Assembly (NCBI GenBank): GCA_016721565.1
Contig: JADKHW010000006.1
Span: forward strand, 31,286-95,285
Length of the DNA: 64,000 nt
From: a bacterium
GTDB taxonomy: Bacteria; Electryoneota; RPQS01
Direction of reading: 5' to 3'
The notes beneath the pieces are model-generated. The model saw nothing but the letters and a program-made list of their open reading frames with translations. It had not been told where the DNA came from and made no database searches. Below, in pieces: positions 19,987-64,000 of the stretch (position 1 is its first letter; each line of letters begins with the position of its first letter). The position numbers and the translations under genes are program-made.

Positions 19987-19993
19987 CCGAGAC

Positions 19994-28124: not shown

Positions 28125-29425
28125 TTTCATTACGCAAAAATTCTATTGATACGGCCACGCCGCAGCTCAAAATTGTTGTCCCAACACCGCTTTACGGCGG
28201 TAGTTTGCCCATCGCGTATCATGCGGCGGACGCATTTATCGAGCTTGGCCATACGTGCGACGTACTCCGATTAGACGAGCAGCACTCGCTTTTTGAATCA
28301 TTGGGTACGGATGTTGAGGATAATGCGGGCAAAAGGTTAAAGAGTCGTTTTGCGGAGCTGCTTGCGGATTATGTCGTTGAGCGTGCCATTCAAACTAAAG
28401 CTGACTTGGTCTGGTACACCGCGCAATCACCGGTGTCTATCGCTTCGCTGAGAAGATTACACGATGCCGGTATCAAGGCAACATTGTGGTTCGTAGAGGA
28501 CGTGCGAAGATTTGATTACTGGAAGCATATCGTACGCGAGTTTGATCTTGTGTTTTCAATTCAGGTTGGCCCGGCCGCTGATGCGATCCGCCAAGCTGGT
28601 GCTCGTCAAGTCGTCTATTTGCCCATGGCGGCAAACGTCGCCATTCACCGGCCCATGATGCTCTCGCACGAGCATCAGCAGCGCTACGGATCGCAAGTCT
28701 CGTTTGTCGGAGCAGGCTATCCTAACCGCGTAGCGCTCTTTACCGAGCTTGAATTGGCCAATCTTAAGTTGTGGGGAAATGATTGGCCAAGTGCCTGGAC
28801 GGAACGCTTGCAGGAGTCCGGTCGCAGAGTCTCAACGGAAGAGACTGCGGTGATCTACAACGCTTCTGCGATCAACCTAAACATTCACAGCGCTGTCAGC
28901 GGTAATGTTTTAGAGTGTGGTGATTTTGTAAATCCTCGAACGTTTGAGATTGCCGCATGCGGAGGCTTTCAGATTGTCAATCGCCAATCACCACTATGTG
29001 ACCTGTTTGGCGAATCGGAACTCTGCATTGTTGACGATGAAGCTGAGCTTAAGAGTGCATTAACACATTTCACCAGCAACCAGCGCGCTCGCAATAAGAT
29101 GGCAGAAGCCTCGAGGTTACGAGTCATGCGCGAGCACACCTATGTGCATCGAATGAAAACCGCGCTCAATTATGTGTTTCATTCGACTATCCAGGCACCG
29201 AGGATGGCTGCTGTTGCGACGATGGCAGATCTGAAGGTCGCCGCGCACGGCGATCAGGATATGCAGAAGTTCCTCGCGCAATTTACGGACACTGAGCCGG
29301 CGACTCTGCAAAAGCTTGTCGACAAAGTGTCCAAGGATCAGCATACCCTGTCGCGCGCGGAACTGATCGTCATGCTCATGCACGAGTTTCGCAATTGGGG
29401 AGTCGAAAAAGGTGTTATTCAATGA
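28121..29425 (+). CDS. CgeB-like glycosyltransferase (DUF3880 + GT1-like C-domain)
   Basis: YLPMAANVAIHRP ... YPNRVALFTELELANLKLWG ... FEIAACGGFQIVNRQSP. This resembles the spore-maturation CgeB family. Confidence 0.6.
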   Translation: MISLRKNSIDTATPQLKIVVPTPLYGGSLPIAYHAADAFIELGHTCDVLRLDEQHSLFESLGTDVEDNAGKRLKSRFAELLADYVVERAIQTKADLVWYTAQSPVSIASLRRLHDAGIKATLWFVEDVRRFDYWKHIVREFDLVFSIQVGPAADAIRQAGARQVVYLPMAANVAIHRPMMLSHEHQQRYGSQVSFVGAGYPNRVALFTELELANLKLWGNDWPSAWTERLQESGRRVSTEETAVIYNASAINLNIHSAVSGNVLECGDFVNPRTFEIAACGGFQIVNRQSPLCDLFGESELCIVDDEAELKSALTHFTSNQRARNKMAEASRLRVMREHTYVHRMKTALNYVFHSTIQAPRMAAVATMADLKVAAHGDQDMQKFLAQFTDTEPATLQKLVDKVSKDQHTLSRAELIVMLMHEFRNWGVEKGVIQ

Positions 29426-30981
29426 GTCGTCGGGCTTTGGTCATCGCCGTCACCAGACTTGGCGATATCATCCAAACCGAGCCGATGGTTCGTGCGTTGA
29501 AAGCTGAGGGGCGCTTTGATAAAGCAACGGTTCTTGTCGAACGATCTTTCGCCGACATCGCAGGTAGAATAACTAGCGCTGATGAACTGAAGTGCATTGA
29601 CTTTGAAGCCATTCTTGGTCGACTTGACCGATCCTGTGCCGCGCTTCCTATGCGAGAATATCTTGCGCTTGCTGATTGGCTTCTGCGCAACAGTTTCGAT
29701 ACTGTATATAACGTCACGCACTCGAGGCCGTCGATGATGCTGGCTGCATTGGCAAGTCATGAAACACAAGGTGTGACGCTCGACCAACAAGGGATGCAGG
29801 TTGTCAATAATCGCTGGCTTCAGTACTTCTTCGCGACAAATTTGGCGCGTCCGTGGTGTTCTTTCAATTTGGTTGACATTTATGTCAATGCCGTTGACCC
29901 ATTAGTCGCACAGTCAGAACGCAAACCCCAATTGGTTTCAGGCGGCGCGCGTGACAAGAGAACTTTGAAATTCAATGATGGAGAGGTGTTGCTTCATGTT
30001 GGAGCCTCTAAGTCTGACAAGCAGTGGCCTCTTGAGAAGTTTGTTGTGCTGAGTCAATATTTGCTTGACCGTGGTTTGAGTGTGACACTACTCGGCGGTG
30101 GAAAGTCCGAGGCGATCAGCCGTGCATTTCCTGCGCACAAGAACTTCCAGGACTTGCTCGGAATGACGTCCATTGGTGACTTGTTTGACCTTTGTCAAAA
30201 CGCAAGCCTTTTGGTGTCTGCTGACTCCGGTCCCGTTCACGTTGCTGCCGCGTGTGACCTGCCAATCATCGCCATTGAAGGCGGATCGGCGCACGGCTTT
30301 GAGACGGCGCCTTATAAGGTAGGTTCAATCGTCATTCAGCCCCACCTTGACAGAGTGATGTCCCGCAGACCGACCAAGCATGCAACCTCTGCTTCTTCTG
30401 ATTTGGTTAGCGTGGAAACAGTCATTTCGGCGATTGACTTCTTAGCGGGTGGATCGGATCAAATCACTTCATCGCCGCAGTGCACGGTTTATGAAACGAT
30501 AAACGGTGAAAATGTACCTGGATTAGATTTGCGTGCAATTAGCGGAAGCAATTCAGAGTACGAAGAGTGGCAGCAGAGGCTGAGACGATTCTGGTGGCGC
30601 GTTGGCGGAGGCCACTCGTCCTGCAATAGTCAACCAGCCAACGACTTGACATCCTGCGCTATGGCTTCGGCAAAGGCAGCAAGACTCATTTCGCAAGCCG
30701 GAAACAATTTCACGTCGCTTGAAGAAAGTGCTGCAAGTTTGAGCGCAACGGAGCACTCCCTAACTAAAATGATTGAAGCTTATCCACCGCTGCATCACTT
30801 GAACTTTTTTCTGCAAATTGCGCGCTCAAGTGTTCATGGAGAATTGCCGCATGAACAGGCTCAAGAACTTGAAAAGCTCTACGATGATGTCGCGGAGGCA
30901 GCAGCCGAGTTGGAGCTAACTCCGAGTCATCGATCAGTTAAGAAACAGTATAATTCAAATAGTGAGAAGGTACCAGCATGA
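29395..30981 (+). CDS. GT9-family (ADP-heptose heptosyltransferase-like) glycosyltransferase with C-terminal extension
   Basis: RRALVIAVTRLGDIIQTEPMVRALK ... LLHVGASKSDKQWPLEKFVVL ... DSGPVHVAAACDLPIIAIEG. Strong GT9 pattern. Confidence 0.75.
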   Translation: MGSRKRCYSMSRRALVIAVTRLGDIIQTEPMVRALKAEGRFDKATVLVERSFADIAGRITSADELKCIDFEAILGRLDRSCAALPMREYLALADWLLRNSFDTVYNVTHSRPSMMLAALASHETQGVTLDQQGMQVVNNRWLQYFFATNLARPWCSFNLVDIYVNAVDPLVAQSERKPQLVSGGARDKRTLKFNDGEVLLHVGASKSDKQWPLEKFVVLSQYLLDRGLSVTLLGGGKSEAISRAFPAHKNFQDLLGMTSIGDLFDLCQNASLLVSADSGPVHVAAACDLPIIAIEGGSAHGFETAPYKVGSIVIQPHLDRVMSRRPTKHATSASSDLVSVETVISAIDFLAGGSDQITSSPQCTVYETINGENVPGLDLRAISGSNSEYEEWQQRLRRFWWRVGGGHSSCNSQPANDLTSCAMASAKAARLISQAGNNFTSLEESAASLSATEHSLTKMIEAYPPLHHLNFFLQIARSSVHGELPHEQAQELEKLYDDVAEAAAELELTPSHRSVKKQYNSNSEKVPA

Positions 30982-31592
30982 AGATATTCATGAACGGTCT
31001 AGAACTTGGCCGGGAGGCAACCGGTGAAATGGAAGTGGGGCAGGTCTTGTCCGAGATCCAGAGTGAAATCCATGCCGGTGGGAAAATTCTGCTTGGCGCA
31101 AGCATTGACGGTGTCGCGATCGAAAAAGGCTTTCGTCGTCGCCGTCAACTCGCAACGCCGGTGACCCGAGTCAATAAACTTGAGTTGATGATTCAAGATC
31201 CCGAGGCAGTTTCGGAGCAAATCTTAAAGGACTCTCTGCAAATCTATCGGCAACTTCAACATGAGGTACCTGTTCTGGCGACTCGCTTTCGTATGGGCGA
31301 TGAGTTCACCGCAAATCAGCAACTCGCGGACGTGTTAGATCGTCTCACGCTGTCGCTAAAAGGTTCCTCAATGGCGCTAAAACAGCGGCCCTTAAATTCA
31401 AATTTACAAGGAAGATTGAACCAAGCAGGCGGCGAATTGATGCCTGTTCTGGATCGCGTATTGGCCGCTCAAACTGCCGGAGATTACACCGCTTTGGCCG
31501 ACCAGCTTGAATACAAACTTCCAACAGCGCTTAAGAATTGTTTCGACTGCATGTTGCAAGCAACTGAAACTCAAACTGTAGCCCCGAGATAA
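30978..31592 (+). CDS. Hypothetical protein (last gene of glycosylation block)
   Basis: 204-aa ORF, no recognisable motif. Confidence 0.4.
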   Translation: MKIFMNGLELGREATGEMEVGQVLSEIQSEIHAGGKILLGASIDGVAIEKGFRRRRQLATPVTRVNKLELMIQDPEAVSEQILKDSLQIYRQLQHEVPVLATRFRMGDEFTANQQLADVLDRLTLSLKGSSMALKQRPLNSNLQGRLNQAGGELMPVLDRVLAAQTAGDYTALADQLEYKLPTALKNCFDCMLQATETQTVAPR

Positions 31593-50012: not shown

Positions 50013-50326
50013 GCGCTGACGCGGCCTCAACGATTGTTTGGGGTCGCGTTTTTTTGTGGGGATTTTGGAGAGGCGAAGAGGGGTTGTAAGGGGTTGTTTC
50101 TGTGTAAAACGCTAATAATTGTCGGAACAGGAGTTGAGGATAAACAAGAGGTTAACTTTCGGGGGTGCACCTTTTTTCACGAAGTGTTATCTCGTTGATT
50201 TTGTTCATACCCTAATATACGATAATTTGAACGGATGGTCAAGTGATATTTTTGTTTTATTGAATTTAGTAAACTCTTGAGATGACTTGAGTTGTGTGAA
50301 AAATGAGGGTTGGGGAGGCATTTCTC

Positions 50327-50372
50327 GGATTTCGGCGGGGAACCGCTTCGCTAAATCCCCGCTCGGCGGAAA
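50327..50372. repeat. Hairpin-containing repeat element, copy A (GCGGGGA-N-TCCCCGC core)
   Basis: TTTCGGCGGGGAACCGCTTCGCTAAATCCCCGCTCGGCGG. Copy B at 52288-52342 carries a 13-nt hairpin insertion. Confidence 0.7.
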
Positions 50373-50479
50373 TGAGGCAAGGCCAAGGTCGATTTGTTAC
50401 CACCCCTTTATCCCCCCAGAGGACTGGGGGGAAATCAGAAAGCACTTGCGGAAGTGGTGGGGTGGGTGTAGATTGGGGT

Positions 50480-52282
50480 ATGAAGTGCGATTTTCTTCAG
50501 ACGCGAATTCTATCTGTATTCAATCTCTTGAAGCGGGTGGGGTTCGCGGTTTTGTTGTTGGGGGGAGCGGCGCAGTCCCAGCCACAGATTGACTGGAGGG
50601 AAGCTCGCATGATTGATGCTGACGTGTATTGGCACTTTCACAATATTGCAGTTTCCGGTGATACATTATTATTTGTTAAGTTCAATGAAGCTGGGCGGCC
50701 CGTTACCTGTTTTAGCTACGACAATGGATTAACTCATGGTGACTGGATCGAACATGGTGTAGATGAGGACAGAGCCTATAATACAGTTATAAGCACATCG
50801 GCGAATTGGTCCTATGTCTTCTGGGAAGACGATTTTCCATCAACGATGAGAGCAGAGGCAAGTTCAAATGCTGGATCGACGTGGCAGCCGCAAATTGAGC
50901 ATACAGGCGCGTGGCCACTAGCTGCATCAACTTCAGCCAGCACAACCGTCTTAGTGTACTCTGCGAGTTCGTCAGGTGCCGCTGTGGTAAAGGCACGTTG
51001 GGCGATTGACGGAACAAACTGGGGAACATCCCAAACGGTCGATACATTCAGGACTGAAATGGATGGCAATGATGTTACGCTGACGGCTACCCATACGTTG
51101 ATATCAGCTATTGAAGTGAATACAAACATGTATGACGACCGGATTCATGTTGCTCGTGGATCTAGGACTGGCATACCTTGGACACAATTTGAAGTGATGC
51201 CTAACCAGCCGTACGCTCAAGTCGTTCGAAGGGTTAGCCTAGCATCCGATACTACTTCGGAAAATGTTGTACTTGCGAGTGTTTGGGAAAGAGGTGTCTC
51301 AGGATTCGGAGATGCGGACGTATTTGTTACGCACAGCCCGGACGGGGGCGAGAGTTGGGAAACACCGCAACAGCTCACGGAAGGAGCTCCTATTTCTTGG
51401 GCTTCCTATGATGACATAAAAGCTTTCTGCAAAGGAAATCTGTATGGATTGGCTTGGAGCTATGATACTGCTGATGACATCGAGGATTGGAGTCTGAACT
51501 TCAGATATTCAGCTAATCACGGCAGATTTTGGTACCCTGCGCAGGAAATTAACTCGTTTGTGCGCGGAACCAGAATTACAACAGGACAATTTGTTGGGAG
51601 TGAAGTACGTGTCTATTGGGACGTGGCGCTTGACTCAAACTTCACAGAATTTTCTTTGCGAACAGTCTCGGGGCTTCTCACACCTGACACATTATCTCCA
51701 GAACTTGAGAACCTCTGGAATCTTCCTGAAATTGTATCCTCCGACACTACACTCGAGTTAAGTGTACTGGCAACGGACGACGACTCGCTGTGGAGCGTTG
51801 AGTTTGTGGCATATCTACAGGGCGCTCCAGAAGTGTCTTCAATAGTTGTGCTTGAGCACTTATCCTCTTCGCAGTTTGAAGGGTTTTGGACGGTTCCAGC
51901 TGACACGGCGATGTGGGTTTGCTTCTATCGTGCAGAAGATTTGTGGGAGAATGTGGCGACAACCTTGCCAGAGACGTTATTTGTTGGTACGATTCAAGCT
52001 GGTGGTAGTACTCCAACGATTGTGAATAAATTTTCACTTTCTGCATTTCCTAACCCATTCAACTCGACGCTTTCGATTTCGTTGGATGTGCCGTTGCATC
52101 GGGATGTGACGCTTGGGTTGTATGATTTGTTGGGGAGAGAGGTGGATGTGGTTTATCGGGGGAGACTCTCGTCTTCTACTGTTTCTTATGTTGCGCCTGC
52201 GGCGATGGCGAGTGGGGTTTATTTTTTGAGGGCGAGTGCGAATTCGCAATCTGTTTTGGGGAAAGTGGTTTTGTTGAAATAG
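50480..52282 (+). CDS. Secreted BNR/sialidase-like repeat protein with T9SS C-terminal sorting domain
   Basis: Signal peptide MKCDFLQTRILSVFNLLKRVGFAVLLLGGAAQSQ. BNR-like SxDxGxxW (HSPDGGESWETP, SNAGSTWQP). C-terminal Por_Secre_tail-like FPNPFNSTLSISL...GVYFLRA...KVVLLK. The true start is 50480, not 50303. Confidence 0.75.
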   Translation: MKCDFLQTRILSVFNLLKRVGFAVLLLGGAAQSQPQIDWREARMIDADVYWHFHNIAVSGDTLLFVKFNEAGRPVTCFSYDNGLTHGDWIEHGVDEDRAYNTVISTSANWSYVFWEDDFPSTMRAEASSNAGSTWQPQIEHTGAWPLAASTSASTTVLVYSASSSGAAVVKARWAIDGTNWGTSQTVDTFRTEMDGNDVTLTATHTLISAIEVNTNMYDDRIHVARGSRTGIPWTQFEVMPNQPYAQVVRRVSLASDTTSENVVLASVWERGVSGFGDADVFVTHSPDGGESWETPQQLTEGAPISWASYDDIKAFCKGNLYGLAWSYDTADDIEDWSLNFRYSANHGRFWYPAQEINSFVRGTRITTGQFVGSEVRVYWDVALDSNFTEFSLRTVSGLLTPDTLSPELENLWNLPEIVSSDTTLELSVLATDDDSLWSVEFVAYLQGAPEVSSIVVLEHLSSSQFEGFWTVPADTAMWVCFYRAEDLWENVATTLPETLFVGTIQAGGSTPTIVNKFSLSAFPNPFNSTLSISLDVPLHRDVTLGLYDLLGREVDVVYRGRLSSSTVSYVAPAAMASGVYFLRASANSQSVLGKVVLLK

Positions 52283-54614: not shown

Positions 54615-54632
54615 GGCCACCAAAGAATTTCA

Positions 54633-54722
<90 letters not shown>

Positions 54723-54844
54723 ATTGCGCACAAGTACTTGATTATAGTGCTTGTGCGTTTGATATTTTGGAGTGAAGTGCCAAGTATGTGCCAAGTGTTC
54801 TAAGTGGCCGGCACGCCCAAAATAGACCTAAAGGCCAAATCAAA

Positions 54845-55970
54845 ATGAAAAGACCAGACACGCCGAATGTGCGTTCCCGAAAGAATCCAAGCGGTGAACG
54901 CGTGTACTTCGTCGACTACTTCGACTTTGAAAAGAACAAGCGAGTACGCGAAGTCGTTGGTCCGCGAAAGGCTGAAGCAGATCGTCGGGCAGCCGAAATC
55001 TATCAGCAACGAAAGGATGAGTACTTAGGCGTTGCCGTGCCGACGGCCAATGACATTACCCTGGGCGAGCTTATCGACGCATTCTTCCGTAGCAAAGTAG
55101 GTCGCGTTGCGCCTTCAACAATCAAGCGGTATAGAATTCATGCAGCGCACTTAGTTGCCTTTGTCAACAAGAATTTCCCCAAAGTCAAGAACATTCGAGC
55201 GATTCGCAAGGTCTACATCGAGGAACTTTTTGAAGCTTTGCGACGGCAAGCAATGGAGCCCAAGACCCTAAACGCACAACTTCAATTTGTGAAGGCAATC
55301 TTCATCTTCGCCGAACACGAAGGGTATCTTACTGAAAGCCCTGCGAAACGAATCAAACCGTTTCGCGAGACCAAGCAATCCCAAGCAGTGCCATACTGGT
55401 CGAAAATCGAAGTTGTTTCGATTCTTGCGGAAGTGAAACAGGGTGGAGGACGCCTATGAATTCTTGTATCACACGGGGCTGCGTAAGGGCGAACTTTCCA
55501 ATCTCACTTGGGATGATGTTGACCTTGATCACGACCCTCCTTCAATTGCCATTCAAGCAAAAGATGATTGGACAACGAAAACCTTGAAGCGGCGAATCGT
55601 TCCGCTGAATACAAGAGCAGCGGAGATAATCAAACGTCAGGCTCGAAGCAAAAAACACAACTACGTTTTCAAAGCTCCAGAAGGTGGGCAAATCCACCCA
55701 GATAAGATTTATCGCGAACTGAAACGCGCACTGGCTGTCTTGAATCTCGAAGGTGATGTTCACCAGTGGCGACACACATTTGCATCCCATCTTGTGATGA
55801 GTGGAGTTGATATCGCTACGGTCTCCAAACTATTAGGGCATCATTCCATCGAAAAAAGCCATGAAATACCCCCTCTTGCTCCTGGACCACTTGGCGGCGG
55901 GTGTGAGATCACTTGGCGCAAAGGGAAAGAGTGGGGGACGACGCAAACTTTACATCATTTTATGCCTTGA
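54845..55970 (+). pseudogene. Tyrosine recombinase/phage integrase, disrupted by a frameshift near 55443-55459 and a probable second one in an A6 run near 55853
   Basis: N-terminal SAM-like/core-binding domain ORF (54845..55459) and catalytic-domain ORF (55443..55970) are in different frames. The catalytic ORF has R..HxxR (HQWRHTFASHL) and LLGHHSIEK, but the terminal Tyr motif is out of frame. Deleting one A restores ...MKY...LDHL. Confidence 0.7.
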
Positions 55971-56018: not shown

Positions 56019-56050
56019 TCTTTTCGTTTCCACCCCCCAAAGGAGTTCCC

Positions 56051-56263
56051 ATGAAAGTCAAAGTCCTCTGCCTTGGCCGCTCGGCCAAGGAAATCAACGT
56101 CAGTGACGGTACGACCGTCGAACAAGCCATCGCGGAATGCGGATTCCCGAAGGATTCGAGCTATACCCGGCACCTGAACGGCAGCCCGTGTTTTGACACG
56201 GATATTCTGGTCGACAACGCCGTGTTGACGTTGGTGCCACAAGTGAAAGGCGGGGGTTGTTAG
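56051..56263 (+). CDS. Ubiquitin-like beta-grasp protein (ThiS/MoaD-like) ending in GGG-C
   Basis: 70 aa. MKVKVL...HLNGSPCFDTDILVDNAVLTLVPQVKGGGC. RBS AAAGGAG 6 nt upstream. The C-terminal Gly-Gly is followed by a single Cys, as in precursor Ubls trimmed by JAB peptidases. Confidence 0.75.
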   Translation: MKVKVLCLGRSAKEINVSDGTTVEQAIAECGFPKDSSYTRHLNGSPCFDTDILVDNAVLTLVPQVKGGGC

Positions 56264-56346
56264 ACAGCGTTCCTGACTGTCTACCAATTAAGGGAGGGCT
56301 GCGGTTCAAGTAACCGTGGCCCTCTCTTTCCTCCGGAGGAACGCTT

Positions 56347-56415
56347 ATGATTGAACAACAAATCCGCACGTTGTGCCGATTCTATGAACAGAAATGGCAT
56401 GTGCCGATTACATAA
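56347..56415 (+). CDS. Leader mini-ORF (22 aa, MIEQQIRTLCRFYEQKWHVPIT) with strong RBS, overlapping the E2 start via TAATG
   Basis: GGAGGA sits 6 nt upstream of the ATG. Its stop TAA overlaps ATG 56415 of the downstream gene. No RBS precedes any candidate start of the E2 gene itself. Confidence 0.4.
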   Translation: MIEQQIRTLCRFYEQKWHVPIT

Positions 56416-57455
56416 TGACACAAGACATGGACCTGCTTTGTTGGCACGAAGTTGGGATTGCTGTCCGTACTCATACGGATCCTGATTCAGCATTCTCAAA
56501 GAATGTCTCAGGTGATCCGCTTGTGATGGAATCAGTGCTTGTCGGCAAGGTTTCACCGACTTGGATTGTGCTGTACGGTGCGCCTCGTGTCGATGTGACT
56601 TCGAACATCCTTGACGCACATCTTCCACGTATGTGCCGGACGTTTAGAGAACGTCAAAGGGAGACATTGATCGACACGATGCAAACTGTGGCTGCCGAAC
56701 GGAAGCATGAACTTGCAATCTCGCTTAGAGATGACCGATACGAACTCGAACGACTTTGCATGCAGGTGATGACTCTATCACGCAAAGTCGAAGGAGACCG
56801 TGAGATACTGAACATGTTCAGCAGGGCACCGGAATTCATCAAAGCGAAGGCGACGCGGACATTCGTGGAAATGATGCGACTGGTTCCCAGTTGTTATTCG
56901 CATATCAACGTCGTCGAGAAGTCTGTGCTTGCCGAGACGTATCCGATCACACTGGAACACGATGGTGGAAGTTACAACTTCGAACCTTATGTGGTTGAAG
57001 TGGACTTGGACAAGGGCAAAGTGTTGATCAGCGGCGGAACCGAATGCAACGGTTACATACATCCGCATGTCACGGATGATCCTAACAACATTTGTTGGGG
57101 TAACATCGGACATCTTGTATCTCGACTGACTGGTGAACTTGACTTGCATGGACTGCTCCAACTTGTTCATCAGTTTCTGCATAGCTACAATAGTTCAGAT
57201 CCGTTTCAAAAGATCGAGAAGTGGGATCCCGATTGGGTTGAAGACGAAGATGACAATGATTCATACTGTTCGTGGTGTGATGATTACGGCCACGATGTTT
57301 CAGAATGTGACTATTGCAGTTGGTGTGAACACTGTGATCAGTACGACGAACACAGTGAAGAGAACTGCCCAAACCGTCCCAAAGATGAAGATGAAGACGA
57401 AGGAGAGGAGGAAGCCGATGCAGAACTTGCAGAGGACACCGCGACAGCCGGTTGA
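56415..57455 (+). CDS. E2-like (UBC-fold) ubiquitin-conjugating enzyme homolog with N-terminal extension and C-terminal CxxC-rich acidic tail (alternative start 56394)
   Basis: UBC-like core: beta-strands (YPITLEHDGGSYNFEPYVVEVDLDKGKVLI), HPN-like motif with catalytic Cys (YIHPHVTDDPNNICWGNIGHL), following helix (LHGLLQLVHQFLHSY). Tail: CSWCDDYGHDVSECDYCSWCEHC...C then DEDEDEGEEE. Confidence 0.65.
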   Translation: MTQDMDLLCWHEVGIAVRTHTDPDSAFSKNVSGDPLVMESVLVGKVSPTWIVLYGAPRVDVTSNILDAHLPRMCRTFRERQRETLIDTMQTVAAERKHELAISLRDDRYELERLCMQVMTLSRKVEGDREILNMFSRAPEFIKAKATRTFVEMMRLVPSCYSHINVVEKSVLAETYPITLEHDGGSYNFEPYVVEVDLDKGKVLISGGTECNGYIHPHVTDDPNNICWGNIGHLVSRLTGELDLHGLLQLVHQFLHSYNSSDPFQKIEKWDPDWVEDEDDNDSYCSWCDDYGHDVSECDYCSWCEHCDQYDEHSEENCPNRPKDEDEDEGEEEADAELAEDTATAG

Positions 57456-58131
57456 TGCTGGTGTGAAGATTCAAGTCGAGGCCGAGGCTATGCAGAAGCT
57501 ATGGCTGTGGACTGATTTTGCGAGAGGTGAGGTTAGTTGCCTCGGACTCGTGGATGAAGTTGTTAGCACGGACACTGGTCGCACGACGGCGTTGATTGTC
57601 ACCGACTTCTTTCTGGTAAAGCAGGATTGCACTTCCGACGAAACCGATATGGATGTTGCGGATGTTGCCAGATTGATATCCGAACTGGAAGCGAAGGGAA
57701 TTGACTCGCGTAAGCTTCGTTGCTGGGCACACTCGCATGCGACGATGAGCGTATTCTGGTCAGGTCAGGATGAATCATGTATCAGTGGACTTGCCAATGC
57801 TGAGTGGCTACTCAGCTTGGTCGTGAATAAACGTCGTGACACACAGATGCGCCTTGACCAGTTCCATCCCAGTCATATGTACATTCCTGATGTCGTGTGG
57901 GAAGTGAAATATCCACTGGTGGACGGCCTCGCAGAAGCATGCTTTGATGAGTTCAAGGCCAAAGTCCACGAAGGTACTTTCATGCCAAGAACACGCGATG
58001 TTGTCAGTGGAAGAGATCGTCTTTGGAATGAGCTGGACCATGCGAGGGAACGAGGTGCTTTGACAATGGATGACCTTGATGACGAATTGAATTGGCTGGG
58101 GATTGAACGTGACGACTTTGAACCATATTAG
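57418..58131 (+). CDS. JAB/MPN (JAMM) metalloprotease, predicted Ubl-processing/deconjugating peptidase
   Basis: JAMM motif HSHATMSVFWSGQD (HxHx7Sx2D) with upstream Glu (GEVSCLGLV). RBS GAAGGAGAGGAGG precedes ATG 57418. Overlaps the E2 3' end by 38 nt. Confidence 0.8.
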   Translation: MQNLQRTPRQPVDAGVKIQVEAEAMQKLWLWTDFARGEVSCLGLVDEVVSTDTGRTTALIVTDFFLVKQDCTSDETDMDVADVARLISELEAKGIDSRKLRCWAHSHATMSVFWSGQDESCISGLANAEWLLSLVVNKRRDTQMRLDQFHPSHMYIPDVVWEVKYPLVDGLAEACFDEFKAKVHEGTFMPRTRDVVSGRDRLWNELDHARERGALTMDDLDDELNWLGIERDDFEPY

Positions 58132-58139
58132 GAGACCAC

Positions 58140-58788
58140 ATGAACGACATGCGATTCTTACGTCAAAAAGATGTTGTCGATACCGAGAAGCTTGCGAACC
58201 TGCAAGTAACGTTGATCGGTCTGGGGAGCATTGGGAGCGTCACTGGTCTGTATCTTGCCAAGATGGGCGTGGTCAAATTGACCACCTTCGATTCAGACAT
58301 CGTCGATGTCCACAATGTCAGCAATCAGGCTTATGGGATGTCTGATGTTGGATTGCTGAAGACTGATGCATTTGCAACGCTTGTCGAGAACCAAACTGGA
58401 GTGCTTCCAAACACCGTAGGTCTACAGTATGATGGTCGACAGCTTTCCGGTGTCGTGATTTCTGCGTTGATTCCATGAGTCTCGTAAAACGATCTGGAAA
58501 TCTATACGAGAACAGCCAAGCGTCAGGTTGTATGTTGACGCACGCATGGGTCTTGAAACACTGGTTGTCCACGCAGTGAGACCACAACTCCTAATCGACA
58601 GACTGAAGTATTCACAATCAATTGTACCTGACGACCAAGCTCTGCAAGAACCATGCACGGCACGAACGATTTGTTACACGCCTTTGATGGCCGCGGTTGT
58701 TTGCAATCTTGTGAAACGGTTTATCAATCAGGAAGTACTGCCAAGCCAAGTCACTCTTGATCTTGCAACATTCACTTTGATGGCCTGA
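58140..58788 (+). CDS. E1-like (ThiF/MoeB-type) adenylyltransferase, interrupted by a +1 frameshift around 58470-58478
   Basis: Frame 0 (58140..58478): Rossmann VTLIGLGSIGSVTGLYLAKMGVVKLTTFDSDIVDVHNVSNQ (GxGxxG plus D...N.Q). Frame +1 opens at 58471 and continues to 58788 with ThiF-like C-terminal segments (YVDARMG..., EPCTARTICYTPLMAAVVCNLVKRFI). Confidence 0.65.
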
Positions 58789-58901
58789 GCGGAATTATCA
58801 GTGGAATCCCCGAAAAACTCGTGAAGTCATAAGACCGGCAAGCCACTGACCGTGATATAAAGGGATTTGTGAATAAGCGGATCCGCTGAGGCAGGTTACA
58901 A

Positions 58902-59306
58902 ATGGAATTCACGCCCACCGAAGAGGTGTCTGCCAAACTGACGCCTGCTGAGATAATTGTGCAAGACCAGCCAGGCCGGTTGCTTCTTCCTGCACATGAG
59001 CTTGTTGTGCCGGCAGCGCCCGTCACCTTTTGTCACGCAGCAAGGGATAACATCATGCCCACTTTTCAATTCACGACACACGAACGTTGGGATCATGTTG
59101 TAGAGTATTCTGTTAATGCGCCAACTCTCGAAACCGCTGTTCGAATGGCAGTGACGGGAAAAGTGACATATACCAGTGCAGAATATCAAGAGGGTAATCC
59201 AGTTCAAGAAGTTTTGTCCATTCTTGAGGTGATTAATCACGACAACAAAGAGGTAATCAACAATGAAAAGAAGCTGAAGAAACTGCTTGACAACTCCGTT
59301 GGCTGA
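58902..59306 (+). CDS. Hypothetical 134-aa protein (last gene of the Ubl operon block)
   Basis: ORF followed by a strong terminator. No recognisable motif. Confidence 0.4.
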   Translation: MEFTPTEEVSAKLTPAEIIVQDQPGRLLLPAHELVVPAAPVTFCHAARDNIMPTFQFTTHERWDHVVEYSVNAPTLETAVRMAVTGKVTYTSAEYQEGNPVQEVLSILEVINHDNKEVINNEKKLKKLLDNSVG

Positions 59307-59312
59307 TAATAC

Positions 59313-59338
59313 AAAGATAGGGGGGAACCCCTATCTTT
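59313..59338 (+). terminator. Rho-independent terminator
   Basis: AAGATAGGGG-GGAA-CCCCTATCTT-TT perfect 10-bp stem. Confidence 0.8.
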
Positions 59339-59624
59339 TAGCCTTTTCTGGACATATTTGTCGACTTTATAAGCCTCTATTGGTGGTTGCTATTGATAAA
59401 CATGGAAGAACGATGTAAATTAAGTATGGGCAAGTTAACCGACCTCAACTGATTGAATTACTGGCATTTGTTCATGACGCGACCCGAACTGACTGTAGAA
59501 GAATTTACGCACTACACAAAATGAAATCCTAACCATGAATCTCTTGACTAAGTCAAGTCGAAATCCTTTCTTGTTCTCAGGTCTTGTGAATCTGACGCGC
59601 ACACTTAGCTTGGAGACCACGAAT

Positions 59625-60887
59625 ATGACGCGAATTCTATCTGTATTCAATCTTTTGAAGCGGGTGGGGTTCGCGGTTTTGGTACTGGGGGTGACAAATG
59701 GGCACTCGCAATCATGGGAGCTCATGGATGAATTACCTGAACGTTCGGAAGTTGAGTGCATTACAATTGATGCCCAGACGGGAAGCATATTTGCAGGCAC
59801 GGCTCGAATTTTTGGTTTTCCGGAATGTGGAGGAATTTACAAGTATAATCAAATAGATGGAATTTGGGAATATAAGCAGTTTAGAGAAACAACAATAAGT
59901 AATATCCTCAGACTCCAGAATGACCATACATATATTTATGCATGCACAGAAGAGGGATTAGCACGGTCCAATGACGACGGTGAATCATGGCAGCTTTTTG
60001 ACGATCATCCGGGAAATTCTTCAAACATAGCTATGTCTCCCAACGATAGTACCCTATGGGCAGTTGGTCTTTCTCCTGTGGAGTCGACACGGCTCTATTT
60101 AGTTAGAGACGGCATTGAGTGGGAGCTTATTGATTCATCGCTTCCATGGACTGGTGGTCTCGGTTTTTCAAGTACGGATTCGACAATTCTCTACATGGCC
60201 ACAAACAACTTTTGCTATCGCCTCAATCTACAAACGAGAGTAAGGGAGCAGATTTTCCCATGGAATTTTTATGGCTACAGAACATTATACTTGTCACACG
60301 AAGAGCCTAATGTCTTTTTCTTAGAGCTTCATTCGATCTTCCGTTATGACGAAGAGACTTCCTTGTATGATTCGGTCTTCTTTCCAGCGGGCAGTGGACG
60401 TGCCAACAGATGGGCGATCTCTTCATCGGAAGAAATAACCGTCGCAGCCGATAGCATGCTACTTGAAATCAACAGCGATTTGACTTCTGTTGACATTCTT
60501 ACGCCGCCTGAACTCGGATTAGGCGGAAGTGCAATTGGGATCGATACTGTCACAGGCATACGGTATGTAGCAGTTGAAAACAGAATTTATGTCGAATTGC
60601 CAACGGCTGTCGACAATATAGGTCGGCCTGAAGAATTCCCTCTTTCTGTCTTCCCCAATCCCTTCAATTCGAGTATATCTATTTCCCTCCGCATTGCTCC
60701 ATATCAAAGAACGACTTTGTCATTATATGACATACTAGGCCGTGAAGTGGACGTCTTTCATCTCGGACGAATTAATCGCGAGACAATTCATTACACAGCT
60801 CCTTCATCATTAGCAAATGGCATCTATTTCATTCGAGTAGAGATTGGGGAGTGGCACGCGCTACAAAAGGTCATCTTGTTGAAGTGA
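59625..60887 (+). CDS. Secreted beta-propeller-like protein with T9SS C-terminal sorting domain (paralog family of 50480..52282)
   Basis: Signal peptide MTRILSVFNLLKRVGFAVLVLGV is nearly identical to that of the first T9SS protein. C-terminal FPNPFNSSISISL...GIYFIRV...KVILLK. The true start is 59625, not 59535. Confidence 0.75.
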   Translation: MTRILSVFNLLKRVGFAVLVLGVTNGHSQSWELMDELPERSEVECITIDAQTGSIFAGTARIFGFPECGGIYKYNQIDGIWEYKQFRETTISNILRLQNDHTYIYACTEEGLARSNDDGESWQLFDDHPGNSSNIAMSPNDSTLWAVGLSPVESTRLYLVRDGIEWELIDSSLPWTGGLGFSSTDSTILYMATNNFCYRLNLQTRVREQIFPWNFYGYRTLYLSHEEPNVFFLELHSIFRYDEETSLYDSVFFPAGSGRANRWAISSSEEITVAADSMLLEINSDLTSVDILTPPELGLGGSAIGIDTVTGIRYVAVENRIYVELPTAVDNIGRPEEFPLSVFPNPFNSSISISLRIAPYQRTTLSLYDILGREVDVFHLGRINRETIHYTAPSSLANGIYFIRVEIGEWHALQKVILLK

Positions 60888-60994
60888 CTTGCGGTGGGCT
60901 TGCCAATTGGTTGATTGATTTCTTAGGTTAACGATACTCTCTGTCAAGACGCGCAATTCAAATATCTGCACACCATTCGAACAGGAGGCTGCAA

Positions 60995-62437
60995 ATGCTA
61001 CCGCGCAAGTTCTGCACCATTTCTATTACCGCCGTTGTCTTTCTCTGTCTATTATGGTCTTTTGGATTCGTGATTGCAAGTACGAATGTCCAAAGTGGTG
61101 TTTGGAAGGGCATACCAGTTGAATTTAGGAAAGGGGAAGCGTTACTCGTCACAGAGGATGAAGAAATTTGGACTGATCTTACGACACTGCGCACCACATT
61201 GTCAGTCACGACGCCTGATTCGACAACAGGAGGTGGTTATTTTATGATTCAATTTCCTGAAACGTCTAATGTGCTAAACATTTGCACTCAGTTTGAATCT
61301 GCAAATGGCGTAATCGCATGCATTCCGAGTCTTCGTATGCGCAAAGCATCGAATGATGCACACTTTGAGTATCAATGGAACATGTACAATGATGGAAGTC
61401 TTTATGCGGAAACTGAAGGTCATGACATCATGTTGGATGAAGCGCATGCAATATCTCGAGGTAACAGTGATGTCAAACTTGTTATTATTGATTCGGGCGT
61501 GCCTTGGGATTTTGATCTTGATCAACCGACTCATCTTGACCTAAACAACGATAATTTCCCCGAACATATTACTCGGGCAACGGAATTCCCAGAGGGTTTC
61601 ATTAACCCCTCTGACGTAGAGGGGCATGGAACTCAGGTGGCCGGCATTGCACTTGGGGAGGCTGACAACAATTATGGAATTGCTGGGGTATGTCCAGAGT
61701 GCAATGGGGTAGTTTATAAAGTGTGGAATAGTGATGAATCAGACAATTTTCTTGCACCTACTATGATGGGGATGTGGCGAGCTGCAAATTTAGAAGGCGA
61801 AGGGGACGATTATGACGATCCAACGGTAATATTGGTACCTTCGACACTCTTTACTCAAGGAATTGAAGGTGATCTTGATGCCTTGCGAGCCCTTGAAAAC
61901 TTGCTCAAGGACCTCGTTTATAGAAATCATAACAATCAGTGGCCTGATTATTCGACAAGAAATCTCTTCATATTCCCAACAGGCAACGAGAATCTTCATT
62001 ATGTTCCATATCCGGCAAGATTTGCGAGTTATGATAGAATTGAGAGTGGGGTCATTTCCGTAGGCGCGACAAACATATTTGATAATCGGTGGTGGGTTAA
62101 TGACGGCATTGGTTCAAATTATTGGGGAAGTAACGTTACGTTGTCAGCTCCAGGCGGAGGTGCAACGGAACCAGGGTGCGAGCCCGGAATTCTATCCAGT
62201 GATATCGTTAGTAGTAGGCAACATTCATGCTATTGGGGACTGCTGCAAGGTCCACATTCCGATTTTCTTTCGAACAAAGGTACTTCTATTGCGGCTGCCC
62301 ATGTTGCGGGGTTGGCTGGCCTAGTGTGGTCACTGAGTCCTAACCTAACAAACTGGCAGGTCAAGAACTACATGGTTGCCGGAGTAGATGCCATTGCGGA
62401 TGAAATGGGCGAAGGACGCGAGGTTGGTGCAGGGTGA
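60995..62437 (+). CDS. Subtilisin-like serine protease (peptidase S8) with signal peptide; ends at an in-frame TGA inside a conserved motif
   Basis: Catalytic triad motifs D (IIDSGV), H (GHGTQVAGIA), S (GTSIAAAHVAGLAGLV). The stop interrupts the G-x-G-(x)-I-N-A subtilase motif (EVGAG*INAFK). Confidence 0.8.
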   Translation: MLPRKFCTISITAVVFLCLLWSFGFVIASTNVQSGVWKGIPVEFRKGEALLVTEDEEIWTDLTTLRTTLSVTTPDSTTGGGYFMIQFPETSNVLNICTQFESANGVIACIPSLRMRKASNDAHFEYQWNMYNDGSLYAETEGHDIMLDEAHAISRGNSDVKLVIIDSGVPWDFDLDQPTHLDLNNDNFPEHITRATEFPEGFINPSDVEGHGTQVAGIALGEADNNYGIAGVCPECNGVVYKVWNSDESDNFLAPTMMGMWRAANLEGEGDDYDDPTVILVPSTLFTQGIEGDLDALRALENLLKDLVYRNHNNQWPDYSTRNLFIFPTGNENLHYVPYPARFASYDRIESGVISVGATNIFDNRWWVNDGIGSNYWGSNVTLSAPGGGATEPGCEPGILSSDIVSSRQHSCYWGLLQGPHSDFLSNKGTSIAAAHVAGLAGLVWSLSPNLTNWQVKNYMVAGVDAIADEMGEGREVGAG

Positions 62438-64000
62438 ATCAATGCGTTCAAAACATTGCTGCGGGTCCCCGTAGAGAAAAGGCTCCAAAGGGATCTCACG
62501 ATCAGGAAGAGTCCCTATCAAGGCGATTCTCCATATCAGTTGGACCGCGGAGACCTTGTGGTCCCTCCATTAGTCACCTTAACGATTGAGGCTGGTGTCT
62601 CCATCAATTTGCATCTTTCAGCGATTAGAGTTGAGCCAGGCGGTCGACTAGTTATCCTTGGTGAAGAAGGAAACGAAGTTGTGCTTCGTGGTTATTACCA
62701 AGATCAAATTCACGAGGGTGAGAGTGGTTGGACTGGCATAATTGCAGACGATGCGTCGTTAAGCATAAGTCACTGTGTGATCGAACGCGCAGAAAATGGA
62801 ATCGTACTTGGTGGTTCAAGCAATTTGCGGATGGATAACTCTCGCATAGTTAGTTCATACACGAATGGCTTGCGAGTATTGTCTGGAAGCCGCGCCACAT
62901 TGACGGATTGTGACGTACTTTTCAGTGCTGGAAGTGGTATTGATGCCCGCAATGCAGCTTTGGTTTCTTTGGAGCGCTGTGAAATTTCACATAACAATAC
63001 CCAAGGACAGTTGTTCAGTGGCGGCATCTTTGCGTTTTTTACTAACCAGTTAATGATCGAATGCTGTGAAATCACTGATAATGTCGGCGCAGGTATATAC
63101 GGATGGTGGTCGAACATTAGACTCACCCCAACTTCTGGAAATCCTACAATTGGTGGCCCAGGATATAGCGATTTCTCGGGCAACTCGTATATAAACGGAC
63201 AGTGCTTATTCAGGAGCTGTAGCGTACAAATGGAAGGCGGAAGAAACCGCTTTGGTGCTCCTCCTGCAGCACCGGAAGGTTGGTATTACCTCGAATTTGC
63301 TGATCATCCCGCTGTCATTGAACCTGTTAACTTGAATGGCAATCACTGGAGTATTACAGAGCCTGGGGAGGAGAACTGGATACTTGACCACATCCTTGCA
63401 ACCTCCCTTGACATTGTTCAAGATGGATTTGACTATGAGACCTCCTGGGATCTCTGCGACAACTCGACAATGCCGACCCTTTCTGTTTGCGATTCAGTTT
63501 GGGATACGGCAATTTTCAAGTTAGCACAAGACAGTTTCGAAACTGCATCAGTTCAGTTCAAAAACGTTTTGACTTCGGGTGATCAATGCGTCTTAAAGCC
63601 ACTTTCGCCACGTGTGATTGTGTCAAGTGAAAAATCTGCAGGTACTACGTACGGCGATATTGTGGATTACCTAACAGCGCGTGAAGACACAACAACCGAT
63701 TACGCCCTCAAATTCTCCCTAGCGCAAGCATCGGCAGAAGCAAAAGGCTATGATGGCGAGTTCACAGAGGCGATTTCAGAACTTGACTCGCTTGCGACAG
63801 ATTCTTACACTTCAATTTCTGATTCTGTCTCTTGTCTTACTTCCATAGCTAGCCTCGAGTTCTTACAGGCCATGAGAACTTTAACAAGTGCGGAAAGTGT
63901 TATGATGGCTGTGGATACTTTACAGTCTGCTCTCGATAACCTAACGTCATTCTTGGTCGGCGACGAAGTTTTCGCGCCGACACTGGAGCTTACGCCGCCT
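62438..64000 (+). CDS. Right-handed parallel beta-helix repeat region (3' partial), in frame with and probably originally contiguous with the S8 protease
   Basis: Same frame as 60995..62437, with no stop through to the window end. Repeats such as NGIVLGGSSNLRMDNSRIVSSYTNGLRVLSGSRATLTDCDVLFSAGSGIDARNAALVSLERCEISHNNTQGQ. The opposite-strand ORFs here are low-complexity antisense artefacts. Confidence 0.6.
   Translation, partial: MNAFKTLLRVPVEKRLQRDLTIRKSPYQGDSPYQLDRGDLVVPPLVTLTIEAGVSINLHLSAIRVEPGGRLVILGEEGNEVVLRGYYQDQIHEGESGWTGIIADDASLSISHCVIERAENGIVLGGSSNLRMDNSRIVSSYTNGLRVLSGSRATLTDCDVLFSAGSGIDARNAALVSLERCEISHNNTQGQLFSGGIFAFFTNQLMIECCEITDNVGAGIYGWWSNIRLTPTSGNPTIGGPGYSDFSGNSYINGQCLFRSCSVQMEGGRNRFGAPPAAPEGWYYLEFADHPAVIEPVNLNGNHWSITEPGEENWILDHILATSLDIVQDGFDYETSWDLCDNSTMPTLSVCDSVWDTAIFKLAQDSFETASVQFKNVLTSGDQCVLKPLSPRVIVSSEKSAGTTYGDIVDYLTAREDTTTDYALKFSLAQASAEAKGYDGEFTEAISELDSLATDSYTSISDSVSCLTSIASLEFLQAMRTLTSAESVMMAVDTLQSALDNLTSFLVGDEVFAPTLELTPP

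What the first reader, a model, noticed from the sequence alone, without database searches (positions are those of the whole stretch)
62420..62450. In-frame TGA inside a conserved subtilase motif joins S8 protease and a beta-helix ORF in one frame
The protease ORF stops at 62435-62437, giving ...EVGAG*INAFKTL. That is the position where subtilases carry G-x-G-(R/L/Y)-(I/V)-N-A. The same frame then stays open for more than 1.5 kb, encoding parallel beta-helix repeats, to the window edge. This could be a recent nonsense mutation in a large secreted protease-adhesin (for example CGA to TGA), a sequencing error, or stop-codon readthrough. Genome-wide TGA reassignment is unlikely because TGA terminates fliM (791-793) and the E2 gene (57453-57455) normally. 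Selenocysteine is unlikely because there is no SECIS-like hairpin immediately downstream.
Basis: seen in the sequence. Interest (0 to 1): 0.55.

Follow-up and report, generated by a model that had tools for sequence, protein, structure and literature searches.

The report
Nonsense codon splitting a secreted protease gene
A single TGA stop codon sits where relatives have an arginine codon and cuts one very large secreted protease gene into two pieces; this is most likely an ordinary recent gene-inactivating mutation, not a new kind of genetic decoding.

Summary
ORF 60995-62437 is an S8 subtilase of 480 aa. It ends at TGA 62435-62437 inside the C-terminal G-x-G-R-[ILV]-N-A motif, and the same frame stays open to the window edge. 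In a 99.8%-identical contig from another assembly (L001), the frame runs 1,727 codons further to a T9SS C-terminal sorting domain, giving a 2,208-aa readthrough product.

Among 138 homologs aligned over the stop position, 128 have Arg and none ends there. At least 31 continue through the same conserved linker into a beta-helix within one ORF. The 40 codons between the TGA and the publicly annotated GTG start (62558) belong to this conserved linker.

Only the upstream piece has a signal peptide, and only the downstream piece has the sorting domain, so neither piece alone is a complete T9SS cargo. TGA is a normal stop elsewhere in the window. No SECIS-like fold follows the TGA. The same TGA occurs in both assemblies, which makes random error unlikely.

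Best reading: a recent Arg (CGA or AGA) to TGA nonsense mutation in a giant T9SS protease/beta-helix surface protein, leaving at most basal leaky readthrough. This is ordinary and of low interest.

The parts
60995..61081 (+). N-terminal Sec-type signal peptide of the protease ORF (MLPRKFCTISITAVVFLCLLWSFGFVIA|ST). The cleavage site is a guess.
   Evidence: Read directly from the sequence. The maximum Kyte-Doolittle 15-residue window is 2.61, against at most 1.45 for any candidate start of the downstream piece.
61082..61340 (+). N-terminal propeptide-like domain shared with homologs (aa ~30-115)
   Evidence: HMMER stretches covering query residues ~10-250 are aligned in dozens of homologs. The AlphaFold model gives a beta/alpha domain with pLDDT 72-95 over aa 31-113.
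61340..62434 (+). S8 subtilase catalytic domain with all catalytic residues intact: D166 (61490-61492), H211 (61625-61627), oxyanion N331 (61985-61987) and S431 (62285-62287)
   Evidence: Pfam PF00082 at 93 bits, cut-off 21.8. D166, H211 and N331 are invariant and S431 nearly invariant in alignment A2. Foldseek gives subtilisins, deseasin MCP-01 and mirolase as top PDB matches.
62435..62437 (+). In-frame TGA at codon 481, replacing the Arg of G-x-G-R-[ILV]-N-A. It corresponds to Leu266 of subtilisin Carlsberg/DY, 8 residues before the end of the mature enzyme.
   Evidence: R in 128 of 138 homologs; PDB alignment GAGxIN to GKGLIN 263-268 of 274. The TGA is identical in L001.
62438..62557 (+). 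40 codons treated as intergenic in the public annotation. They encode the last S8 helix (AFKTLLR) and the conserved linker LTIRKSPY..SPYQL..LVVP.
   Evidence: The consensus in single-ORF homologs is GYGRxNAFKALLRTPxxKxLxxxLTIRKxxYxxxSPYxLxxxLxVPxGxTLTIxxG. The model has helix 484-490 with pLDDT 95-97 over 481-500.
62558..64000 (+). Start (GTG) and first 481 codons of the publicly annotated 'right-handed parallel beta-helix repeat-containing protein' (MBL0061254.1, 1,687 aa). It is in the same frame as the protease and runs off the window. In L001 it ends with a FlgD_ig / Por_Secre_tail sorting domain.
   Evidence: The product from this start has no signal peptide. No sigma-70-like promoter or terminator lies on the + strand between 62100 and 63700.

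Best explanation
The locus is one ancestral gene for a giant (about 2,208 aa) cell-surface or secreted protein exported by the type IX secretion system (T9SS). Its order is: Sec signal peptide, propeptide-like domain, S8 subtilase, conserved linker, several right-handed beta-helix modules with interspersed domains, then a C-terminal T9SS sorting domain. A single-base change turned the conserved Arg codon of the subtilase motif G-x-G-R-I-N-A (CGA or AGA) into TGA. Ribosomes therefore mostly stop after Gly480. The product is a protease that has its signal peptide and catalytic residues but lacks the last helix of the fold, the whole beta-helix stalk and the sorting domain, so it cannot be exported or anchored by the T9SS. 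The downstream 1,727 codons remain an intact but orphaned reading frame. They have no signal peptide, no nearby ATG, and no promoter detected by a sigma-70 consensus scan, which does not cover other promoter types. That frame is translated only by rare basal UGA readthrough or spurious internal initiation. The absence of any further stops or frameshifts shows the lesion is recent. Shown here: the stop, its position, the single-ORF architecture of homologs, Arg as the ancestral residue, normal use of TGA as a stop, and presence of the stop in two assemblies. Inferred: loss of function, the exact ancestral codon, and a low level of readthrough.
For: The stop and the open frame are seen. Arg is found at the site in 128 of 138 homologs, none ends there, and 31 share at least 40 aligned residues beyond it. 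Single-ORF homologs span the junction, for example P0017 with one HMMER stretch covering query residues 12-879, E=3e-109. A 1,563-aa paralog with S8, beta-helix and sorting domain in one ORF lies 7 kb downstream in L001. In L001 the frame continues to a sorting domain, 2,208 aa in all. A distant relative, P0023, is 43% identical over residues 676-2208, so the C-terminal architecture is old and conserved. An AlphaFold model of the joined sequence is continuous and confident across the stop (pLDDT 95-97 at residues 481-500), with helix 484-490 completing the S8 fold. The signal peptide is only on the upstream piece. The first ATG of the downstream frame is 131 codons after the stop, whereas every other same-frame gene pair in the window has an ATG within 1-8 codons, or within 13 where a TTG lies two codons after the stop. 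TGA is a normal stop in this genome. There is no SECIS-like fold (z = -0.30) and no Rfam hit. The identical TGA occurs in a second assembly whose neighbouring region is only about 92% identical. Both CGA (10) and AGA (16) are used in the gene. Nearby genes also look damaged: an integrase and a ThiF/E1 gene are each split by frameshifts.
Against: No reads were available, so allele frequency and base quality at 62435 are unknown. The downstream 5.2 kb carries no second lesion. This fits a very recent mutation, but it also fits continued selection on a translated product. The allele is shared by two genomes with divergent flanks, so it has persisted or spread rather than being purged at once. The truncated protease keeps its catalytic triad and loses only about 8 residues of the canonical S8 fold, so it may retain some activity. 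'Pseudogene' may therefore overstate the loss. Only two near-identical sequences exist, which gives no power for a dN/dS test.
Confidence: 0.7

Rival explanations
1. Assembly or sequencing error: the true codon is CGA or AGA and the gene is intact.
For: The island just upstream differs from L001 by many 1-bp indels, and both assemblies have frameshifted genes there. At least one assembly may therefore be error-prone. The gene is otherwise perfectly intact.
Against: The same TGA is present in two assemblies that differ by 7 substitutions and 2 indels in the shared 5 kb and by about 8% in the adjacent 3 kb, so they are not copies of one consensus. The lesion is a substitution in a non-repetitive context, not a homopolymer indel. 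NCBI and ENA records both annotate two genes.
Confidence: 0.1
2. Functional gene fission: the 480-aa protease and the beta-helix protein now work as two separate products, with the second made by re-initiation at TTG 62456 or GTG 62558.
For: The truncated protease keeps its signal peptide, triad and nearly the whole fold. Public annotation calls two genes. The downstream frame is intact. Beta-helix proteins without an S8 domain exist in relatives, for example the 595-aa protein in L003.
Against: The downstream product would carry a T9SS sorting domain but no signal peptide, so it could not reach the periplasm. The S8-less relative has its own signal peptide. The GTG start discards 40 conserved codons, including the last S8 helix. 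No promoter-like site was found, although the scan covers sigma-70 consensus only. No homolog ends the protease at this site.
Confidence: 0.1
3. Functional or programmed UGA readthrough: a near-cognate tRNA (Trp, or a special tRNA such as a tRNA-Trp with a 4-bp anticodon stem) gives a regulated mixture of a short periplasmic protease and the full-length secreted protein.
For: Basal UGA readthrough of about 2-4% is documented in E. coli K-12 reporters (PMC10570021). Bacterial tRNA-Trp variants that read UGA have been reported (PMC13092985). The stop is followed by A, which from my own recollection is not a strong termination context. The downstream frame is intact and the allele occurs in two genomes.
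Against: The stop is not conserved in the family: all 138 homologs have a sense codon. No stimulatory structure lies downstream. There are no other in-frame TGAs in about 55 genes. Trp at a position that is 93% Arg would be a non-conservative replacement. No tRNA-Trp gene lies in the window, so this could not be inspected.
Confidence: 0.07
4. Selenocysteine insertion, or a genome-wide reassignment of TGA (code 4 Trp, code 25 Gly).
For: The only support is the in-frame TGA itself.
Against: No SECIS-like hairpin was found: the MFE z-score is -0.30 and 72 of 200 shuffles fold as well. There is no Rfam hit. Homologs have Arg at the site, never Cys, Trp or Gly. TGA ends 7 of 27 long ORFs at natural domain ends. 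Treating TGA as sense only inflates spurious ORFs.
Confidence: 0.01

Closest known systems
T9SS-secreted subtilases of the Bacteroidota, e.g. mirolase of Tannerella forsythia (PDB 8ehe)
   Same: Both have an S8 catalytic domain with an N-terminal signal peptide and prodomain, and a C-terminal T9SS sorting domain. Mirolase is the second-best Foldseek PDB match (E=2.5e-14) and a phmmer PDB hit.
   Different: This protein is about 2,200 aa, with several beta-helix modules between the protease and the sorting domain. It shares only about 21% identity with mirolase. It is interrupted by a stop codon.
Uncharacterised metagenomic S8 + beta-helix + Por_Secre_tail proteins (P0017-P0022, P0024, P0027, P0030, P0041 and others)
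   Same: They share the domain order and the conserved linker GYGRxNAFKALLRTP..K.L...LTIRK..Y...SPY.L...L.VP.G.TLTI. Identity is 26-37%.
   Different: They are single uninterrupted ORFs with Arg at the site. The window's copy has TGA there.
Ordinary bacterial pseudogenes created by a single nonsense mutation
   Same: There is one stop at a position that is sense in all relatives. Essential parts end up divided between two pieces. Public annotation lists the two pieces as two genes.
   Different: No secondary decay has occurred yet, and the upstream fragment retains a nearly complete catalytic domain.
Protease-on-beta-helix-stalk secreted proteins such as SPATE autotransporters (analogy from my own knowledge, not tested here)
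   Same: Both have a protease head followed by a long right-handed beta-helix, exported to the cell surface.
   Different: The protease clan differs (S6 versus S8), as does the secretion route (type V versus type IX). No homology is implied.

Membership tests
Peptidase family S8 (subtilases) | Pfam PF00082 match above the gathering score | tested here: met
   93.2 bits against a cut-off of 21.8, profile positions 2-273 of 288.
Peptidase family S8 (subtilases) | Catalytic Asp-His-Ser in that order, plus the oxyanion Asn | tested here: met
   D166, H211, N331 and S431 are present. They are invariant or nearly invariant in a 30-sequence alignment.
Peptidase family S8 (subtilases) | Complete subtilisin fold, including the C-terminal helix after G-x-G-x-[ILV]-N | tested here: not met
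   The ORF as encoded stops at the residue equivalent to Carlsberg L266. The helix at 484-490 exists only in the readthrough product.
T9SS type A cargo protein | N-terminal Sec signal peptide | tested here: met
   It is present on the upstream ORF only. This rests on a hydrophobicity calculation and inspection, not a dedicated predictor.
T9SS type A cargo protein | C-terminal sorting domain (PF18962 / TIGR04183) on the same polypeptide | tested here: inconclusive
   The end of the gene lies outside the window. In L001 the downstream ORF ends ...YQNYPNPFNPSTDIRFDL.... PF18962 scores 22.4 bits, below its cut-off of 27, and FlgD_ig scores 30.7 bits, above its cut-off of 27. The domain is on the same polypeptide as the signal peptide only if the TGA is read through.
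Selenoprotein gene | SECIS hairpin immediately 3' of the UGA | tested here: not met
   The fold of 62425-62520 has z = -0.30 against shuffles. There is no Rfam match.
Selenoprotein gene | Cys or Sec at the homologous position in relatives | tested here: not met
   R 128, L 5, K 2, and H, N and E one each. No Cys.
TGA-reassigned genetic code (table 4 or 25) | TGA is not used as a terminator, and in-frame TGAs occur at conserved Trp or Gly positions in many genes | tested here: not met
   Seven of 27 long ORFs end in TGA at natural domain ends. This is the only split gene of its kind in the window.
Programmed stop-codon readthrough | The stop codon is conserved among orthologs, with constrained sequence downstream | tested here: not met
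   Every more distant homolog has a sense codon. Only two 99.8%-identical sequences share the stop.
Programmed stop-codon readthrough | Measured readthrough above background | not testable with these tools
   This needs a reporter assay, proteomics or ribosome profiling.
Nonsense-mutation pseudogene | Stop at a site that is sense in relatives, separating parts that are needed together | tested here: met
   (signal peptide upstream, sorting domain downstream).
Nonsense-mutation pseudogene | Loss of expression or function, or secondary decay | tested here: inconclusive
   There are no further stops or frameshifts in 1,727 codons. Expression could not be tested.

The most novel reading that the evidence does not exclude
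The TGA is maintained and read through at a useful rate by a near-cognate or specialised tRNA. One gene would then yield both a short periplasmic subtilase and a giant T9SS-exported protease/beta-helix surface protein. This would be a natural case of regulated UGA readthrough in a chromosomal bacterial gene.
Probability: 0.06. Interest if true: 0.5.

Novelty: already known. Interest (0 to 1): 0.14.

Why it matters
The main value is for annotation. Two public records list this locus as two genes ('S8 family serine peptidase' and 'right-handed parallel beta-helix repeat-containing protein'). It is really one interrupted gene for a roughly 2,200-aa T9SS cargo protein, and 40 conserved codons are annotated as intergenic. 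The work also documents a poorly described family of giant subtilase/beta-helix surface proteins in an uncultured flagellated bacterium with T9SS cargo genes. If the stop proved to be efficiently read through, it would be a rare natural example of functional UGA readthrough in a bacterial chromosome. Nothing found here points that way.

Tried and rejected
(1) Word-indexed protein searches. The joined query gave only distant S8 hits. The downstream 520 aa gave nothing, not even the query's own sequence. This tool could therefore not reveal close intact alleles.
(2) A genome-contig scan with peptide patterns gave only a distant hit at 32% identity, in a MAG titled uncultured Geobacter sp..
(3) Two metagenome-contig scans found nothing. 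One used peptide patterns. The other used a wobble-degenerate DNA pattern for EGREVGAG-NNN-INAFKT that would accept any codon at the site. No population variant could be recovered.
(4) An exact look-up of the window's own downstream protein, P0013, to obtain DNA beyond 64000 for a dN/dS test returned 'not on record'. Only the 12 amino-acid differences between P0012 and P0013 are known.
(5) L003, the only closer relative of the C-terminal part, has a run of N exactly upstream of the homologous region. Its protease/beta-helix junction is therefore unavailable.
(6) P0017's contig could not be fetched because the file was too large.
(7) The selenocysteine and alternative-code readings were considered and rejected.
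(8) Minus-strand ORFs overlapping the site (62345-62521 and 62770-63183) were taken as spurious, because the plus-strand frame has homologs throughout.
Full report
**Observation.** The sequence at 62420-62458 reads GAG GTT GGT GCA GGG TGA ATC AAT GCG TTC AAA ACA TTG, which translates to E V G A G * I N A F K T L. ORF 60995-62437 is 480 aa. It matches Pfam Peptidase_S8 at 93 bits, profile positions 2-273 of 288. Translating 60995-64000 in one frame gives 1,002 codons with a single stop, at codon 481. The 520 codons after the stop match Pfam Beta_helix and NosD.

**Genetic code.** TGA is an ordinary terminator in this genome.
- Seven of 27 long plus-strand ORFs end in TGA.
- Those checked stop at the natural ends of their domains: FliM/FliMN_C 72/73, Asn_synthase 352/354, HATPase_c 110/111.
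- Treating TGA as a sense codon only inflates spurious ORFs.
- All other same-frame neighbouring ORF pairs in the window are normal, tightly packed operon genes. Their ATG lies 1-8 codons after the upstream stop, or 13 codons in the one pair whose first start is a TTG two codons after the stop. At this junction the first ATG is 131 codons downstream.
- The window holds only tRNA-Ser(tga) and tRNA-Ser(gct).

**Residue expected at the stop.** Distant S8 homologs align across the stop and show G-x-G-R-[ILV]-[ND]-A. A full HMMER scan of 1.84 billion cluster representatives, using the joined sequence, gave 8,874 hits. Of the listed and fetched homologs, 138 align over codon 481.
- The residue there is R in 128, L in 5, K in 2, and H, N and E in one each.
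- None ends there.
- 107 continue for at least 150 aa.
- 31 share at least 40 aligned residues beyond the site.

Against solved structures, the site corresponds to Leu266 in GKGLIN of subtilisin Carlsberg/DY. This is 8 residues before the C-terminus of the 274-aa mature enzyme. TGA is one substitution away from CGA or AGA. Both codons are used in this gene, 10 and 16 times.

**One gene or two?** Many homologs carry the protease and the beta-helix in a single ORF.
- P0017 is 901 aa and aligns in one stretch covering query residues 12-879, E=3e-109. Other examples are P0018-22, P0024, P0027, P0030, P0041, P0092 and P0095.
- Their alignment shows that the sequence immediately after the stop is among the best-conserved stretches around the junction. 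The consensus is GYGRxNAFKALLRTPxxKxLxxxLTIRKxxYxxxSPYxLxxxLxVPxGxTLTIxxG.
- Many of these proteins end in the T9SS sorting motif NYPNPFNP.
- The public annotation starts the downstream gene at GTG 62558. It therefore labels 40 conserved codons as intergenic.
- An AlphaFold model of the joined residues 1-753 has mean pLDDT 77 and pTM 0.78. It is continuous across the stop, with pLDDT 95-97 for residues 481-500. Residues 484-490 form the final helix of the subtilisin fold, and regular beta-helix rungs follow.
- The best PDB fold matches are subtilases, including deseasin MCP-01 and the T9SS protease mirolase.

**Second genome.** An exact look-up of the 480-aa protein found it on ENA GCA_964269295.1, contig CAXWNI010000011.1 (L001). 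The cluster look-up shows it is also NCBI MBL0061253.1, on a 125-kb contig of a MAG labelled only 'bacterium'. That contig is probably the source of the window.
- L001 is 99.8% identical to window 59036-64000, with 7 substitutions and 2 homopolymer indels. None of these is near the TGA, and only one, a synonymous change, lies inside the two ORFs.
- L001 is only about 92% identical over 56048-58911 and is unrelated further upstream.
- The two assemblies are therefore not copies of one consensus, yet they share the TGA.
- In L001 the frame runs 1,727 codons past the TGA, giving a readthrough product of 2,208 aa.
- That product has four Beta_helix stretches and a C-terminal FlgD_ig / Por_Secre_tail domain.
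- P0023, from a more distant relative (L003), is 43% identical over residues 676-2208. The C-terminal architecture is therefore old.
- A 1,563-aa paralog in L001 carries prodomain, S8, beta-helix and sorting domain in one ORF.

**Functional logic.** T9SS cargo needs a Sec signal peptide to reach the periplasm and a C-terminal sorting domain to cross the outer membrane. This is established knowledge of T9SS and was not tested here. In this locus the signal peptide is only on the upstream piece. Its maximum hydropathy is 2.61, against at most 1.45 for any candidate downstream start. The sorting domain is only on the downstream piece.
- The catalytic residues D166, H211, N331 and S431 are intact.
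- A sigma-70 consensus scan finds no promoter-like or terminator-like site on the plus strand between the stop and the beta-helix. That scan does not cover other promoter types.
- No structured RNA follows the stop. The fold z-score is -0.30 and there is no Rfam hit.

**Interpretation.** The best explanation (about 0.7) is a real and recent Arg-to-stop mutation in a single giant T9SS protease/beta-helix gene. The result is a truncated protease that cannot be exported, plus an orphaned downstream frame that is still intact.

Basal UGA leak could still produce traces of the full-length protein. E. coli K-12 reporters show about 2-4% (PMC10570021).

The neighbourhood fits a decaying variable region.
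- GC falls to 0.44-0.475 at 58-64 kb.
- A tyrosine integrase next to tRNA-Ser is split by a frameshift.
- A ThiF/E1-like gene is split in the window, and split differently in L001.
- The closest junction-spanning homolog, P0017, seems to be cut by an IS element.

Rival explanations:
- Assembly error (about 0.1): disfavoured by the second assembly.
- Functional fission into two proteins (about 0.1): disfavoured by the missing signal peptide and the discarded conserved codons.
- Functional readthrough (about 0.07): the stop is not conserved and no stimulatory element was found. tRNA-Trp variants that read UGA do exist in bacteria (PMC13092985), but no tRNA-Trp gene was available to inspect.
- Selenocysteine or code reassignment (about 0.01).

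**Limits.** No reads were available. No DNA was available for the window's contig beyond 64000. No other close relatives turned up in the genome or metagenome collections. The only closer relative of the C-terminal part has a scaffold gap at the junction. Selection on the downstream frame since the mutation could therefore not be measured. All that is known is that the two alleles differ by 12 of 1,687 residues, all in the C-terminal 40% of the protein.

**Verdict.** It is an ordinary nonsense-interrupted gene. Its main use is to correct the annotation from two genes to one interrupted gene. Interest is low.

Noticed in passing
window 54632-55970: tRNA-Ser(gct) at 54632-54721 is followed by a tyrosine integrase split into two overlapping ORFs in different frames. 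These are 54788-55459 (Phage_int_SAM_5) and 55443-55970 (Phage_integrase catalytic domain). This looks like a frameshifted integrase of an island inserted at the tRNA gene.
   Followed up: partly
window 56394-58788; L001 5979-7669: This is a ubiquitin-like conjugation-type cluster. The ThiF/E1-like gene is split at 58478/58528. L001 carries a copy that is about 92% identical, with 28 indels and frameshifts at other places. Both copies look damaged, or the assemblies are indel-prone here.
   Followed up: partly
window 58000-64000: GC drops to 0.44-0.475, against 0.50-0.54 in most of the window. Arg codon usage in the protease/beta-helix gene is rich in AGA and AGG, while the core genes prefer CGC. 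This suggests a horizontally acquired or variable region.
   Followed up: no
window 50303-52282, 59535-60887; L001 17042-18487, 18533-21443: There is a cluster of T9SS cargo genes with Por_Secre_tail domains around the locus. It includes a second giant S8/beta-helix paralog of 1,563 aa in L001. The same window also carries a flagellar operon (FliM, FlhA/FHIPEP). The organism therefore has both flagellar genes and T9SS cargo genes. NCBI labels it only 'bacterium'.
   Followed up: partly
contig of P0017 (JGI 3300075153, no DNA fetched): The closest single-ORF homolog, P0017 (901 aa), ends in a non-homologous Gly/Ser/Arg-rich tail next to a DUF4096 transposase gene. An rve integrase sits beside another 1,854-aa beta-helix gene on the same contig. 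This gene family seems to be disrupted by mobile elements in other genomes too.
   Followed up: no
L003 8190-10000: Upstream of the ortholog of the C-terminal part (P0023) lies a 595-aa beta-helix-like ORF with its own signal peptide and no S8 domain. It ends at a 10-N scaffold gap (9884-9893). The N-terminal module of this protein family may be exchangeable, or the scaffold may be misjoined.
   Followed up: partly
window 19964-31000: A long run of glycosyltransferase genes (GT4, GT9, GT2-like, MptE-like, DUF3880) follows the flagellar genes. It could be a flagellin or surface glycosylation island.
   Followed up: no
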